Assembly (NCBI GenBank): GCA_038087875.1
Contig: JAXLNO010006027.1
Location: forward strand, 1-64,000
Length of the DNA: 64,000 bases
DNA from: Malacoraja senta
Taxonomy: Eukaryota
Direction: 5' to 3'
Numbering within the stretch: the first letter of the stretch is position 1; each line of letters begins with the position of its first letter. Below, in pieces: positions 9,001 to 15,000 of the stretch. Position numbers: made by a program.

Positions 9001-12000
9001 GACATTGTGGATCCTTGTGGAATATAGACTATAGAACATAGAACAGTACAGCACAGGAATGGGCCATTCAGCCCATAATGTTTGTGCCAAATACGATGCC
9101 GTTAAACTGGTCTCATGTGCCTGTACATGATCCATATCCCTCTATTCCCTGCACTTCCATGTGCCCGTCCAAAAGCCTCTTAAATGCTAATCTGCCTCCA
9201 CCATTGGTGCGTTCCAGGTCCCCACCACTCTGTGTAAAAAATCATGTCCCCCTCTCACATTATAGCTATGCCCACATGACTGCCCCTTTGATATGCTAGG
9301 AACAATTTGATCTTCACATTGCTCACCACCAAGAAATATTTTCAATCAATGATAACAAGAATGTAGAACAAGAAATAAAGATATAGTCATGGTCAAACAG
9401 ACACAGAATCATACAACATGGAAACATGCACTTTGCCCCAGCGCATCCACGCTGCCCAAGATGCCCCATCCACATTATTCTCATTCACCCGCATTTGCCC
9501 ATATCCTTTTATACATTTCCTATACATGTACCTGTCCAATAGTTTTGTAAATGGTATTATTGTACTTGCCTCAACTACCTCTTCTGGCAGCTCATTCCAT
9601 ATACCCACCAGCCTCTGAGTGAAAAAGTTGCTCTCATGCTCCCATTAAATATTTCCCTTCTGACCTTAAACCTATACCCTCTAATTCTTGTTTCCACTAT
9701 CCAGGGAAAAAGATTTTGTGCATTCACCCTATCAATTCCCCTTATGATTTCATTGGTATCTATAAGATCACCCCTCAGCCTCTTGTGCTCTAAGGAATAG
9801 AGTCCTAGCTTACCCAATTTTTATCTATAGCAACGGCCCTCATGTCCTGGCAACATCCTTGTAAAACTTTTCTGCACTATTTCTATATTAATTGATATAT
9901 TATGCAGCAGGGTGACCAAAATTGAACACAAGAATACAATTGTGGCCTATATCCTGTATAACTATAACATAAGGTCTCAACTTCTGGACTCAGTATGCTG
10001 ACTGATGAAGGCCAGCCTGCCAGAAGCCTTCTTCACTGCAACACCATTTTCAGGGAATAATGCACCTGCAAAGCCACTTTCAGGAACCTATATACTTGTA
10101 CTCCTAGATTCCTCTGCTGTACAAAACTCCCCAGGACTTAGCATTCACTATCAAGGTCCTGCCGTGATTTGACTTGCACAAATACAGATATCTGAATTAA
10201 GCTCCATTTGCCACTACTCTGCCTACTTGCCCCAGCTTATAGTAAGATTAAACGAGAACTTACCAGTTTGAAGTTTGATCTTTATTTTATGAGGAGTTAC
10301 GTTGGTGATTACGTGAAGAAGACCCGTCAGGGCGCATGCGCGTCAATCTTCAAAGCAGCGGTATGAAATCACAGATAACACAATATTTGAAGTAACATAT
10401 TAAGATGAGCAACATGAGAACTACCATATGACCTTTTTTATGAGAGAGGGTTGGGCGTGGCGGGCACGTAATCACCAACGTAACTCCTCATAAAATAAAG
10501 ATCAAACTTCAAACTGGTAAGTTCCCGTTTAATCTTACTATTTTACTTCGGAGTCACGTGAGTGGACTACGTGAAGGGTTCAAAGCTCTGTGATTTTATG
10601 CCGCAGATCCAAATCCCAGCTTCTCACTGCATTGATTGACTTTCGATGAGAAACAATCAATAATGCGTTAAACATGAAATGTGAATATCATGCAGTAACA
10701 ATTCATTTGAATAATCAAAACAACCAGTAACCCCTCTATCCCAGGGGAAACTAAACAGGACTTAATCCTGAATTTGCAAACAGCCTCTCGCCGATCGGCA
10801 ATCAGCCGATGGCAACATTTTTAAAAACAAATCATTTGACCACCCGGCACCTGTAAGAATATGGCCGATGTGAACATCCATCGCCCTAGCTGACGACGTT
10901 GCTGCTGCACTAGTGGAAAAGGATATATACACTTCAGTGTTAATACCTGCCTGAATCAACATTTGCTTTAAACCACCTTGAGATAGTCTGCACTGACATT
11001 CTCCTGTGTGGCTACATGTAACTAATAAACAATGCTGTTTCCACATTTCTTAAGGTCTTTATAGCTTCAATATAATGAAAATAAATGTGCCATTACACAT
11101 AAACATGGATCAGTAGGTTATGCTGAAACACAATTTTAACAAACCTGTGACACCTGGCCTGCTCTGTTGGAGCAGGGTGCAAATATATAACATAACATTC
11201 TCTTCAGCAACTTCCATCCTGTCTAGCAGAAGCTTTTGCAAAATCTGCACTTGCTATGCTGAACCAATGCCATGAGCATAACCACTTTCATGATTAGTTT
11301 AGAAAATTCAGAGACATGACAGGAACCTACTATCGAAGCAACTTGAGGACCACACTTACATCCCAGATCGCCAAATACCTGGGTTTAGGAGGTTTAGAGT
11401 TGAAATTCCGTTCATCAATCCAGCTATGATATGATGAAACTTAATAGGATCTTTCCTGACCCCATCAAAACCATACGATGACAAAGCACTTAAAGGTGTA
11501 TTAATGGTGCTATAACTGAGCCCCTCGTCATCGTAGAGTGTTAACAGGAACTCTAAAATATCCACAATACCTGCAGTACTATATTCAATATTATTTTGTA
11601 CACAATATTGCTCCCATTTTTTTACGTAATGTACCCCTTTTGAGTACTCTTTCTCCAGGCTAGAGTGAGCATGTCCACCGTTTGCCCAGACAGTCCTTGC
11701 CCCAGGTATGGCATTCTTAAAACCTGCAAATTAACAAGTCAATACGGTCTCATAACGGATGACTTTCCCGTGTTAGCGGATGCTCCAGTAAATTCCTACG
11801 CTTGGGAACCACCAAAAAGAGGTTGGATCCCTAACTGTAACATCAAAGGGAACCATGCTTGATTCGGCCAATTAGGTATTACAAACACCCCCAATGCGGC
11901 ATCCTGCTTGATTTCTTGCAGACTCCGACCTATTAGGCAAAATGGTAGGATAATATATAAAACATACCACCCCAATGTAACGACAAAGTATCAATTGCAA

Positions 12001-15000
12001 CTGCCACCTGGTCTGGTTCCCATAAAACCTATTTAGGCTGCTGATGGTTGAACCTTGATGCAAAACAAATCGATATCTGGCATTCATATATAAGTACTAT
12101 ATTATTGAACACCTCCTGTTTCAACATCCAATCTGTGTTGTCATGGAACTTTCGTGACTTGGCGTCTGCTACTATTTAGAATCTACCTGGTAGATAAATA
12201 GCTGAAATATATTTTTCAATATACCAGGCCCAAATTTGATTAGCCAATCTGTCACAAGATACCGACTTGATTCCACTGATGTGATTAATATATATGCTAC
12301 TTGCGTAGTATTGTCAATCTGAAACTGAACATGCAGATTACATTTGTTAGAGCAATAAGCCTTATCCATAAAACCTCTTAATAGTTAATTGCCCATGTCT
12401 GCCTCTTGCTCAGTTCATCTGCCTCCACAGCTGAAACTCGTATCCGTGACACCCCACCCGAGTGCACTGACATTCATCTGCAAAATCATGGAAGGCTGGT
12501 CAAGCATTACCTTGCTATAACTCCTGTACACATGGAGAATCCACCATTGTAAATCAGAAACAGCCTTTGCTGATAAATGCATGGGTCTATTATAATGACC
12601 CGAATGAATCCTCCATTAGCTTAATACAGCTGTCAATTAGCTCTACCCTTTTTCCCTGTGCAGAGTCACTTAATTGAATCAATTGTGACCCAAATAGTCA
12701 GGTGTTAATTTGGATTTCTCTGGATGAATAATGCCCAATCTTTGAAAATAGGTTTTAACAACTACCACCGGTTACTTCAGCTGTTCTCTTGGATACCCCT
12801 GTAATCAAGATATCATCGAGATAAGCCATGAGCACCTGACCCTGGCCTCTCAGCATGCCTATTATAGGTTTTAACAATTTTGTTGCCATAGTTGATCCAT
12901 CCAGGTGAATTTCAAATATCCTTATCCTGCAAATAAGCAGACATTGAGTAATGCGCATCTTTAAGCTCTATAGTCGCAATATAGCATCCTCTTGACCCAG
13001 TTGCTTGGCAGTGACAATTCCATCTTACAATGTCTATACTACATCCCCCATCCTTTTTTGGCCTGGGAAAATATTAGACACAAATTGATGGGGTTGGTGA
13101 ACCAACTTTACAATTACACCTTTATCACATAAGCTTCCAAGCGCAGTCTGAACATCCATCTGTTCTGTTAATGAAAACTGAATAGTTCTCCCTAGAACAT
13201 GCTGAATGTGCAAATCACAATTTGGATTGAAATCCATTCGAAACCTTTGAATAACACTCTGTATAAACAGAGCTAAGGTAATTTGCTTCCATTCATCCCA
13301 GAAACAGATGTAATGTACCCCAGATTTAAGTTGTGTCACATTTGATATGTGCACCTGAGAACCAGGCCCACCTACCTCCTTGGTACCTGGTGGATGACGT
13401 TGTCCCCGGCTCCTGGCGGGAAAGCCAATGTTTGACCATGTTCCCGCTTCGTTTGTAGGGGTACTTTCTTTTTTGGAAACTTGCCGACTGCCGGTGGCTT
13501 GATCAAGCCCACCGTCTTTGCCTCGTCATCCATGTCCTTGACACTCTTGGCGAGGTCCTCTCCGAAGAGTAGGTTGGCCGGCTGTATGTTGCTAGGCTGG
13601 AAAAATACTGCAATCTTGGAATTAATTGGGGGCCGAATGGCACTTTCCCTGAGACAATTTATCTCAAAAATGGGTGCTACAAAGCAACCCTAGTACCTCT
13701 TGCTGCGTCTCCGACACATGCCCTCCATCCACCGTTCTCGCGAACGCCGTGATTCCTGAGCCAAGTAATTTCAGGATTCCCTGCAGCTTCATCTCCTGGG
13801 CACTGCACGCCCACGCCCATCTTGCTCCATATCACCCGGTTCACTGCTGGCACCTTCAGCAACTCGCAGTTACCCCAGTCTCTTGGTGATTCCATACTCT
13901 GACGGGACAGCGAATCGTGCTGCCAGAGAATGGACCTCTGACAACGGCCGTTCTTTGCTAAGTTCCAAGTCTCCGTCAGAGTCGGGGTCAGAACTTAGCT
14001 GACCCTCTGCACTCACCTCATGCATGCCCTCTACCAGGTGCTGCCGGCGTGGCCTTTCTGCAGCCTACCGCCCACACGACTCCTCCCCCCGGAGTGTGCG
14101 TTTCTGGAGCAACCTCTGGATGAGGTGCTCCATTTGGGAAAACCGTTTAAAAAACGTCTCCAGCCCCGTACAGGCTCGTTGTGGCCCGACTCAGTTGAGT
14201 CCGAGGGCCTCCCAGACTTCCTCGTGCCTTATGCCCGACTGGCATTGGCTTTGGTGCTTTTTAGCACTCAGTCTGAAGTCGCCCCGCTCCCGGTCAGCGA
14301 CTGTGCAGGGGTACGAGGCAGACGCTGACAGACCGCATTCCCGCAGCTCTCCTATGCTTTACCTGCGGCTGCCCTCCCCCTGCTCGTCTTCACCATGGTG
14401 CTACCTGCAACAAAAAACACAGAGCACGGCACCACAGTAAAGGAACCTTTCACTCCAGCTAAGTTTCCCACTTAGCTGGAGCTTTAAACTACTTTAAAAG
14501 TACTCTAAAAGTACTTACCACAGGAGGAGCTCTGTCCTCCCGCTGGTCCGTGCGCCAATGCGTCCGACGTAATGACGCGCATGCGCTCTGACGGGTCTTC
14601 TTCACGTAGTCACTCACGTGACTCCGAAGTAAAATCAAAATCCCACTGCAATTCCTGATAAACATTTTCACTCTCTGCAATATCACCTATTTTAGTATCA
14701 TTCGCAAACTTACAAATCTTGCCTTGGACATTCTCATCCCAGTCGTTGATATAGGCTTGGAATGAGCCCAGCACTGATGCCTGAGGCACACCACTAGTCA
14801 CAAGTCTCTAGACTGAACCATCCACACACCAGTATCTGCTTCTAATCATGAAGCCAATCCTGTATCTAACCTTCCAGAGCAGCCTCCCTTGTGGAACCTT
14901 ATCAAAGACCTTGCTTAAGTCCATTGTTTGAAAATGAACCTAAGAAATCCCGCAGTTCACTTTTGATAAGTTAAAGACAGTTACTGAATGGGATTTTTCC

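What the first reader, a model, noticed from the sequence alone, without database searches (positions are those of the whole stretch)
10239..14635. Complete DIRS1-type element: near-perfect ends, decayed ORFs, probably a trans-mobilised non-autonomous copy
Seen: the ITRs differ at 1 of 36 nt, the ICR matches the right end at 76 of 77 nt and the left end with one indel, and terminal CpGs are intact. Gag, RT, RH and YR are nonetheless broken by many stops and frameshifts. Known: the DIRS1 model regenerates the termini from the ICR in each replication cycle, so end divergence dates the insertion much as LTR pairs do. Inference: a coding-dead master copy was mobilised recently by an intact partner elsewhere in this genome. 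The ITRs are also very short (36 bp), while the right extension is long (~70 nt).
Basis: partly seen in the sequence, partly recalled or inferred. Interest (0 to 1): 0.65.

Follow-up and report, generated by a model that had tools for sequence, protein, structure and literature searches.

The report
Dead DIRS1-like retrotransposon with fresh ends
This is a 4.4-kb mobile element of the DIRS1 type whose end structures look newly made while all its genes are wrecked, so it was probably copied by enzymes borrowed from a working relative, which is ordinary for mobile DNA but seldom documented for this type.

Summary
Window 10239-14635, coding on the minus strand, has the full DIRS1-like terminal architecture. 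The right end matches its internal complementary region (ICR) at 76 of 77 nt. The left end matches over 36/37 nt with one single-base gap. The two ICR halves overlap on AT, and the inner 36 nt of the inverted terminal repeats (ITRs) differ at 1 site. 23 of 24 long RT-RNaseH-methyltransferase relatives match the minus strand at 24-41% identity, spread over two or three frames in 22 of the 23. At least 23 stops and frameshifts interrupt 1212 codons. The paired ends differ at 2 of 149 sites and have lost 0 of 11 CpG pairs. The 13 or more stops imply roughly 7-9% substitution. So most lesions are older than the insertion, and copying in trans is the best reading (about 0.62). It is not proven: no other copy could be examined, the indel count does not separate the readings, and no close intact relative was found. 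The "very short ITR, long extension" is mostly a matter of definition. By published definitions the ITR is about 63 nt and the extension 44-46 nt, at or within known ranges. Non-autonomous DIRS-order elements are already known (TOC1). I class this as a new member of a known kind, of modest interest.

The parts
10239..14635 (-). Whole DIRS1-like element, 4397 nt. On the element strand it begins ATT and ends TAT.
   Evidence: Outer limits of end/ICR complementarity. The LINE remnant continues on both sides.
14573..14635 (-). Left terminus (63 nt): divergent ITR part 14609-14635, conserved ITR part 14573-14608. No left extension.
   Evidence: Four-way alignment. CpG o/e 1.63.
14401..14572 (-). 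5' untranslated stretch between the left terminus and the gag-like region.
   Evidence: By position only. CpG o/e 0.74.
13375..14400 (-). Gag-like region, assigned by position only. Broken: at least 5 lesions on a minimal path (3 stops + 2 frame changes).
   Evidence: No Pfam match for its pieces. GC 0.56, CpG o/e 0.69.
11723..13348 (-). pol (RT - RNase H - Dam-like methyltransferase). Broken: at least 12 lesions counted over 11640-13525 (7 stops + 5 frame changes on one minimal path). Also about 75-135 codons shorter than relatives.
   Evidence: 23 of 24 long relatives match. Frameshift-aware alignments. Minimal path.
12770..13348 (-). Reverse-transcriptase part of pol. The Pfam RVT_1 segment of relatives maps to 12770-13010, and the RT N-terminal region reaches 13348.
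   Evidence: 3 of 4 RVT_1 segments of relatives hit, E 9e-9 to 8e-7. The element's own piece scores RVT_1 at E 0.054 only..
12152..12486 (-). RNase H part of pol.
   Evidence: 1 of 3 RNase H segments of relatives hits, E 2.6e-7. The region lies inside the 8-of-8 alignments.
11838..12145 (-). Dam-like methyltransferase part of pol.
   Evidence: 3 of 3 PF05869 segments of relatives hit, E 4e-9 to 2e-13, with full segment coverage.
10765..11730 (-). Tyrosine-recombinase-like region. Weakly supported. Broken: at least 5 lesions (3 stops + 2 frame changes on a minimal path).
   Evidence: Pfam SAM-like integrase domains at E 0.012 and 0.12, below cut-off. Atlas lead, nearest clusters carry PF02899. 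36 aa at 50% identity to the C-end of P0013. Nothing.
10465..10576 (-). Internal complementary region: right half 10465-10541 (77 nt), left half 10540-10576 (37 nt), overlapping on AT (the circle junction).
10346..10464 (-). Spacer between the ICR and the right terminus (119 nt). Together with the ITR part of the right terminus that the ICR does not match (10316-10345) it forms the 149-nt loop between the two 77-nt arms.
   Evidence: Fold of 10239-10604: -101.6 kcal/mol, z -17.7, 0 of 100 shuffles as good.
10239..10345 (-). Right terminus (107 nt): conserved ITR 10310-10345, divergent ITR 10285-10309, right extension 10239-10284 (44 nt plus the shared AT).
   Evidence: Four-way alignment. CpG o/e 1.67.
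14636..14924 (-). Upstream flank: old CR1-like LINE reverse-transcriptase remnant, the host of the insertion.
   Evidence: ORF translations. DNA matches to other copies in the window.
9575..10238 (-). Downstream flank: continuation of the same LINE remnant.

Best explanation
The region is a DIRS1-like tyrosine-recombinase retrotransposon, ordered gag-like, RT-RNaseH-methyltransferase, YR-like, ICR, and bounded by short inverted terminal repeats. It inserted without target duplication into an old LINE remnant. All its genes were already dead when it inserted. Its RNA was most likely reverse-transcribed, its ends rebuilt on its own ICR, and the product integrated at an AT(T) site, all by proteins supplied by an autonomous relative. 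On this reading it belongs to a non-autonomous lineage in which only the cis parts (termini, ICR) stay under selection. Shown: the anatomy, the identity of pol, the lesion counts, and the contrast between the ends and the interior. Inferred: that the lesions predate the insertion, that the proteins came in trans, and that a lineage rather than a single event is involved.
For: Anatomy: the three repeat pairs have E 7.7e-33, 4.9e-10 and 6e-15 within the window, and the four-way alignment reproduces the published lTer/rTer/lICR/rICR scheme, including a box shared by all four sequences (PMC3266345 section 10). Pol: 23 of 24 long relatives carrying RVT_1, RNase H and Dam domains match. Decay: at least 23 lesions in 1212 codons; the RNaseH-MT half has 5 stops and 3-5 frame changes in 8 of 8 guided alignments. 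Age contrast: 2 substitutions in 149 paired sites give a per-lineage divergence of 0.67% (95% 0.08-2.4%). At least 13 stops need about 7-9% (P 8e-5 to 7e-4 at the upper bound; P(<=2 differences) 1e-9 to 1e-7). CpG: 0 of 11 CpG pairs lost in the ends. Pol and YR have CpG o/e 0.37-0.44 and TpG+CpA o/e 1.32-1.33, the same as the old flanks at 1.31-1.32. Precedent: the ICR is essential, and DIRS-1 RT makes cDNA in trans from a truncated element (PMC7192593, passages). TOC1 is called a non-autonomous DIRS retrotransposon (PMC9940879, passage).
Against: No second copy was available, so shared lesions, the direct test, stay unchecked. The paired sites are few. Without the right-end/ICR pair, which forms a hairpin and might be homogenised, 72 sites with 1 difference remain, and P is only 0.028 at the upper bound. 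Indels do not separate the readings: at least 10 frame changes in 3636 nt predict 0.82 indels in the paired sites, and 1 is seen. No intact partner is in evidence. The exhaustive search with the 163-aa RT piece gave 3 hits at 33-35% identity and none closer, and two YR searches gave none. In Dictyostelium the truncated element gave cDNA but no demonstrated complete cycle. The low CpG of pol and YR could be a property of the family. The gag and YR assignments are weak.
Confidence: 0.62

Rival explanations
1. Dead on arrival in one step. An intact or nearly intact source element produced this copy in a single faulty cycle, through heavy error or editing of the cDNA, or through template switching onto the RNA of an old defective copy. 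No propagating non-autonomous lineage would then exist.
For: This also explains young ends with a dead interior, because the ends are rebuilt on whatever ICR the cDNA carries (model in PMC7192593). The composition step at the gag/pol border (GC 0.56 against 0.40) could mark a recombination point.
Against: The coding strand shows no G depletion or A excess of the kind expected from cytidine-deaminase editing of first-strand cDNA (a prediction recalled from general knowledge, not from a call): G 0.23 > C 0.17 and A about equal to T in pol and YR. Lesion density is similar in gag-like, pol and YR (5 in 342, 12 in 628 and 5 in 322 codons), so no part looks younger. The pol/YR dinucleotide pattern equals that of old genomic flanks, which fits long residence in a genome rather than one faulty cycle. 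Template switching onto a defective RNA is itself a form of copying in trans.
Confidence: 0.17
2. In-place decay. An autonomous copy inserted long ago and decayed where it lies. The ends and ICR stayed alike through gene conversion or hairpin-templated repair between the complementary stretches, or by chance.
For: The right end and its ICR half are 77-nt inverted repeats 149 nt apart that fold into a very stable hairpin, a layout in which homogenisation is conceivable. The indel count fits one common age.
Against: Three separate pairs would need homogenising, two of them 4.0-4.2 kb apart and only 36-37 nt long. Without the hairpin pair the contrast still stands at P 0.028 at the upper bound. 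All 11 CpG pairs are kept in a neighbourhood with CpG o/e 0.13-0.25. Conversion between partners would spread a CpG loss as readily as erase it.
Confidence: 0.13
3. Artefact. The stops and frame changes are sequencing or assembly errors in a copy that is in fact intact.
For: Frame changes are the typical error of some long-read assemblies. Reads could not be inspected.
Against: At least 13 stops remain on the most favourable path, and pol is 24-41% identical to relatives with fragmented similarity in the RT half. The CpG-poor, TpG/CpA-rich interior is a substitution pattern, not an indel error pattern.
Confidence: 0.03

Closest known systems
DIRS1-like elements with short conserved ITRs (AcaDIRS1/2 of Aplysia californica, LgDIRS1/3 of Lottia gigantea; Table 3 of PMC3266345)
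   Same: Nearly the same terminal geometry. Those elements have divergent ITR 30-36, conserved ITR 31-36, right extension 48-49, ICR halves 39-45 and 86-88, start ATT and no left extension. Here the values are 25-27, 36, 44-46, 37 and 77, start ATT, no left extension.
   Different: Those are mollusc elements of 4680-5808 bp, described from families with open reading frames. This copy is 4397 bp and coding-dead, and its host is probably a chordate (a lead only).
Vertebrate DIRS1-like elements (AcDIRS1/2, GaDIRS1/2, TnDIRS1a, XtDIRS2/3 in PMC3266345; Xenopus DIRS-like families in PMC9210276)
   Same: Same gene order (gag, RT/RH/MT, YR), ITRs plus a two-part ICR, and a right extension only. In Xenopus many families are reported with interrupted ORFs (36 of 75 and 13 of 20 families show some degeneration).
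   Different: Their conserved ITRs are 102-148 nt (about 120 nt in Xenopus) and their extensions 26-34 nt, and the elements are 5.3-6.2 kb. Here the conserved ITR is 36 nt and the extension 44-46 nt.
DIRS-1 of Dictyostelium discoideum
   Same: The same logic of ends rebuilt on an ICR. In DIRS-1 the 88-nt ICR is complementary to 33 nt of the left end and 55 nt of the right end. The ICR is shown to be essential, and RT acts in trans on a truncated element.
   Different: Its ITRs are about 300 nt, it is intact and active, and it clusters in centromeres. Here the ITRs are about 63 nt and there is a single dead copy inside a LINE.
TOC1 of Chlamydomonas, called a non-autonomous DIRS retrotransposon (PMC9940879 passage); LARD/TRIM and Dasheng-type non-autonomous LTR elements as analogues (Dasheng seen only as a reference title)
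   Same: An element without working genes that is propagated by the proteins of a relative while keeping its cis ends.
   Different: By my recollection, which no call checked, TOC1 belongs to the PAT-like branch with split direct repeats and lacks most coding sequence. The present copy keeps the whole, decayed gene skeleton and the ITR/ICR architecture.
Ngaro, PAT and VIPER elements (other members of the DIRS order)
   Same: Retrotransposons that use a tyrosine recombinase.
   Different: They carry split direct repeats rather than ITRs plus an ICR. The repeat finder found no split direct repeat of that kind here.

Membership tests
DIRS1-like superfamily (DIRS order) | Inverted terminal repeats with a conserved inner part and a divergent outer part | tested here: met
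   Conserved part 36 nt with 1 mismatch. Divergent part 25 nt at about 68% identity, counted by eye on the alignment; the published range is 50-85%..
DIRS1-like superfamily (DIRS order) | Two adjacent internal complementary regions near the 3' end, complementary to the left and right termini and overlapping at a 2-3 nt circle junction | tested here: met
   Right half 76/77. Left half 36/37 with one gap. Overlap AT. The summed length of 112 nt lies inside the published 85-130.
DIRS1-like superfamily (DIRS order) | At least one terminal extension matched only by the ICR | tested here: met
   Right extension of 44-46 nt, no left extension. Published range 9-75.
DIRS1-like superfamily (DIRS order) | pol with RT and RNase H followed by a Dam-like methyltransferase domain | tested here: met
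   23 of 24 relatives match. Of the 6 relatives scanned, 6 carry RVT_1 and 3 carry Dam. Dam segments map in 3 of 3 cases, RVT_1 in 3 of 4 and RNase H in 1 of 3. The element's own pieces reach only RVT_1 E 0.054.
DIRS1-like superfamily (DIRS order) | A tyrosine recombinase gene | tested here: inconclusive
   Integrase SAM-like domains at E 0.012 and 0.12, below Pfam cut-offs. Atlas lead. A 36-aa match to P0013. No hit. Catalytic residues were not assessed.
DIRS1-like superfamily (DIRS order) | A gag gene upstream of pol | tested here: inconclusive
   A region of the right size and position, read mainly in one frame. No family match.
DIRS1-like superfamily (DIRS order) | Insertion without target-site duplication; element begins with NTT (most often ATT) | tested here: met
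   It begins ATT. The flanks share nothing beyond the AT carried at both ends of the element. The LINE reading continues across the site within about 1 nt (read by eye against one reference copy).
Non-autonomous (trans-mobilised) retrotransposon lineage | Several copies at different loci that share the same inactivating lesions | not testable with these tools
   No other copy in the window.
Non-autonomous (trans-mobilised) retrotransposon lineage | An autonomous partner with matching termini in the same genome | not testable with these tools
   Protein libraries carry no genomic context. The nearest RT-piece hits are 33-35% identical.
Non-autonomous (trans-mobilised) retrotransposon lineage | Cis parts much younger or better kept than coding parts | tested here: met
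   2 differences in 149 paired sites and 0 of 11 CpG pairs lost, against at least 13 stops and at least 10 frame changes in 3636 nt.

The most novel reading that the evidence does not exclude
A lineage of full-length but coding-dead DIRS1-like elements may still be multiplying in a (probably) chordate genome on borrowed proteins. Its termini have the short-ITR, long-extension geometry so far tabulated only for molluscs. If so, natural copies would show which parts (termini, ICR, perhaps the CpG-rich 5' region) are all that the DIRS1 copying mechanism needs in cis. The geometry would point to an unsampled DIRS1-like branch in chordates.
Probability: 0.3. Interest if true: 0.5.

Novelty: new member of a known kind. 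Interest (0 to 1): 0.3.

Why it matters
DIRS elements are the least understood order of retrotransposons. Their copying model rests largely on sequence logic and on one experimental system, Dictyostelium. A copy whose ends are fresh while its genes are long dead is natural evidence that, in an animal genome too, the proteins act in trans and the termini plus ICR carry the cis information. It also gives annotators a caution and a tool. Divergence between the ends and the ICR dates a DIRS insertion independently of the interior, so ages taken from divergence to a consensus can be far too old for such copies. [quoted passage not shown]

Tried and rejected
- **Pfam on stop-free pieces:** only sub-threshold hits, RVT_1 at E 0.054 and SAM-like integrase domains at E 0.012 and 0.12. 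The other weak hits (Ponericin, DUF5516, DUF4719) I treat as chance.
- **Exhaustive protein search with the 163-aa RT piece:** 3 hits, E 1e-4 to 1e-3. They were useful only as a bridge to long relatives.
- **Word-indexed searches with the two YR pieces, longer proteins:** 253 and 61 candidates, none significant.
- **PDB with both YR pieces:** one chance-level hit each, gamma-crystallin at E 0.52 and a PKS domain at E 0.37.
- **PHROGs:** nothing usable.
- **Self-BLAST of the element and tblastn of 24 relatives against the whole window:** no second copy and no other DIRS pol.
- **Rfam and tRNA scans:** nothing.
- **Plus-strand ORFs 14024-14440 and 14020-14328:** no family match. I treat them as chance ORFs in GC-rich sequence, and the plus-strand minimal-lesion control is as low there.
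- **Cytidine-deaminase-type editing signature:** not seen.
- **A younger 5' part recombined onto an older pol-YR part:** not supported by lesion density, though the composition step stays unexplained.
- **Not done:**
  - No structure prediction, because single broken pieces would fold poorly and a joined reading is barred.
  - No scan of genome contigs, because it holds only bacterial and archaeal genomes.
- **Literature:** the searches found no paper describing a non-autonomous ITR/ICR-type DIRS1-like family in animals. Of the 42 papers, I read passages of 2. Of the papers, I read passages of 1. This is weak evidence of absence.

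
Full report
**What is there.** The stretch 10239-14635 (4397 nt) carries three sets of complementary sequences.
- The outermost 77 nt at the low-coordinate end (10239-10315) are the reverse complement of 10465-10541 at 76 of 77 positions (E 7.7e-33).
- The outermost 36 nt at the high-coordinate end (14600-14635) are the reverse complement of 10540-10576 with one single-base gap: identical for 25 nt from the outer end and 11 nt from the inner end (E 4.9e-10).
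- The two ends are inverted repeats of each other. The inner 36 nt differ at 1 site. The repeat extends to 53 nt at 91% or 62-63 nt at 87%.

The two internal stretches abut and overlap on AT (10540-10541). Coding similarity is all on the minus strand, so on the element strand the order is: left terminus 14635-14573, genes, ICR 10576-10465, a 119-nt spacer, right terminus 10345-10239.

**Fit to the published architecture.** A four-way alignment of left terminus, right terminus and the two ICR halves reproduces the scheme of PMC3266345 (whole of section 10 with Table 3 read).
- The right extension, matched only by the ICR, is 44 nt plus the shared AT.
- The divergent ITR part is 25 nt, about 68% identical between the two ends (my count). 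The published range is 50-85%.
- The conserved ITR part is 36 nt.
- A box at their border is invariant in all four sequences.
- There is no left extension.
- The element begins ATT, the commonest start in that table.
- The region 10239-10604 folds as single-stranded DNA at -101.6 kcal/mol, z -17.7, with 0 of 100 shuffles as good.

**Genes.** No minus-strand ORF exceeds 106 aa. Pfam on stop-free single-frame pieces gave only sub-threshold matches, though in the right order: RVT_1 at E 0.054, and further downstream integrase SAM-like domains at E 0.012 and 0.12.
- An exhaustive search with the longest RT-region piece (163 aa) gave 3 short hits at 33-35% identity.
- One of these hits led to 24 longer proteins.
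- I scanned six of the 24 with Pfam. All six carry RVT_1, three carry the Dam methyltransferase domain, three show an RNase H family below or near cut-off, and two others show a PCIF1_WW match.
- 23 of the 24 match the element, on the minus strand only and nowhere else in the window, at 24-41% identity. 14 use all three frames, 8 use two and 1 uses one. Stops inside the matched segments number 0-17.
- Domain segments of relatives map as follows: RVT_1 to 12770-13010 (3 of 4), RNase H to 12152-12486 (1 of 3), Dam to 11838-12145 (3 of 3, E 4e-9 to 2e-13).

The tyrosine-recombinase assignment of 10765-11730 is weak.
- It rests on the Pfam hits above, an Atlas lead whose nearest clusters at 0.96 carry PF02899 in 23% and 95% of members, and 36 aa at 50% identity to the C-end of a coral gene model.
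- Two protein searches, PDB and PHROGs gave nothing.
- The gag-like region 13375-14400 is assigned by position alone.

**How broken.** The smallest number of stops plus frame changes with which the minus strand can be read through is:

| Region | Codons | Minimum lesions | Shuffled sequence |
|---|---|---|---|
| gag-like | 342 | 5 | 7.2 (no discrimination in this GC-rich part) |
| pol | 628 | 12 | 21.3 |
| YR-like | 322 | 5 | 11.2 |
| all three | 1212 | 23 (13 stops + 10 frame changes on one such path) | 39 |

These are lower bounds.
- Alignments that allow frame changes, run against eight relatives, cover the RNaseH-methyltransferase half in 8 of 8 cases: 281-293 codons at 32-42% identity. 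All eight contain 5 stops; six contain 3 frame changes and two contain 5.
- In the RT half the similarity breaks into pieces of 54-96 codons.
- The pol footprint of 542 codons is about 75-135 codons shorter than these relatives (617-677 aa), so sequence has also been lost.

I give no places of breaks.

**Age contrast.** In the model set out in PMC7192593 (passages read; model attributed there to Cappello et al.), the outer parts of both ends are rebuilt on the ICR and most of the left repeat on the right repeat in every cycle. These pairs are therefore identical at insertion.
- They now differ by 2 substitutions in 149 sites and 1 indel. That is 0.67% per lineage (95% 0.08-2.4%).
- About 4.3-5.0% of substitutions in this sequence would create a stop.
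- At the upper bound of end divergence, 3.5-4.4 stops are expected and at least 13 are present (P 8e-5 to 7e-4).
- Thirteen stops need about 7-9% substitution, which predicts 21-27 differences in the pairs (P of 2 or fewer: 1e-9 to 1e-7).
- All 11 CpG pairs in the paired stretches are kept, although the flanks have CpG o/e 0.13-0.25.
- Pol and YR have CpG o/e 0.37-0.44 and TpG+CpA o/e 1.32-1.33, like the flanks at 1.31-1.32. The ends have CpG o/e about 1.0.

**Results against this reading.**
- The indel count does not discriminate: 0.82 expected, 1 seen.
- Leaving out the hairpin-forming right pair weakens the test to P 0.028 at the upper bound.
- The low CpG of pol and YR may be intrinsic to the family.

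**Context.** Both flanks belong to one decayed CR1-like LINE reverse-transcriptase remnant on the minus strand. Read against another copy in the window, its reading resumes after the element within about 1 nt. This is my own reading, against one reference copy. The limits 10239 and 14635 are therefore right, and there is no target duplication beyond the AT present at both ends of the element, as the DIRS integration model expects.

**Host.** I do not take the contig for human.
- The survey in PMC3266345 found no well-conserved DIRS1-like copy in 37 mammals (passages).
- The LINE's nearest Atlas clusters are chordate reverse transcriptases, which is a lead only.
- The host species was not determined.
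- The N run at 47290-47448 was left alone.

**Interpretation.** The lesions are mostly older than the insertion, so the copy was made from an already defective RNA by proteins from elsewhere.
- The three rivals are one faulty cycle from an intact source, in-place decay with homogenised ends, and assembly error. They are weighed in their own sections.
- None could be excluded outright, because the direct test, shared lesions among copies, needs the rest of the genome.
- A 'master copy' is not shown.

**Comparison with the known.**
- The terminal geometry is at or inside the published ranges: ITR about 63 nt against 66-316, conserved part 36 against 31-304, extension 44-46 against 9-75, ICR sum 112 against 85-130.
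- It is closest to four mollusc elements in Table 3 (conserved 31-36, extension 48-49, ICR halves 39-45 and 86-88). It is unlike the seven vertebrate entries there (conserved 102-148, extension 26-34) and unlike Xenopus (about 120 nt).
- Trans action of DIRS-1 RT on a truncated element is published, though a full cycle was not shown for it.
- TOC1 is called a non-autonomous DIRS retrotransposon (passage).
- Many Xenopus DIRS-like families are reported with interrupted ORFs (passage). The supplementary table that might say whether their termini are intact was closed.

**Verdict.** It is a new member of a known kind, of modest interest.

Noticed in passing
window 9575-10238 and 14636-14924 (minus strand); other copies at 2381-3082(-), 15784-16500, 24587-25198(+), 55535-55993(+), 62058-62178, 63729-63830: A CR1-like LINE family is scattered through the window in decayed copies (64-77% DNA identity to the flanks). 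One of them is the host of the DIRS insertion. The longest open pieces are 233 and 203 aa.
   Followed up: partly
window 10358-10375 and 10587-10604: An extra 18-nt inverted repeat (16 of 18) lies just inside the right ITR and just beyond the left ICR half (pair I5). By my own rough estimate about 0.25 such pairs arise by chance in 5 kb, so it may mean nothing, but its position is suggestive.
   Followed up: no
window 13375-14400 against 10765-13374: There is a sharp composition step inside the element at the gag/pol border: GC 0.56 and CpG o/e 0.69 upstream against GC 0.40-0.41 and CpG o/e 0.37-0.44 downstream. Lesion density per codon is similar on both sides. The step is unexplained.
   Followed up: partly
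window 1941-2206: A GC-rich tandem repeat, period 84 (also read as 43 or 29), 3.2 copies, 92% matches.
   Followed up: no
window 19504-19570, 29200-29262, 37113-37194: Microsatellites: (TAG) x22, (TAAAC) x12.6 and (AGTG) x20.5.
   Followed up: no
window 47290-47448: A run of 159 N.
   Followed up: no
window 4001-6000, 16001-18000, 24001-26000, 30001-34000, 62001-64000: Blocks of strong GC skew (+0.25 to +0.33, and -0.28). Some coincide with LINE copies in one orientation or the other.
   Followed up: no
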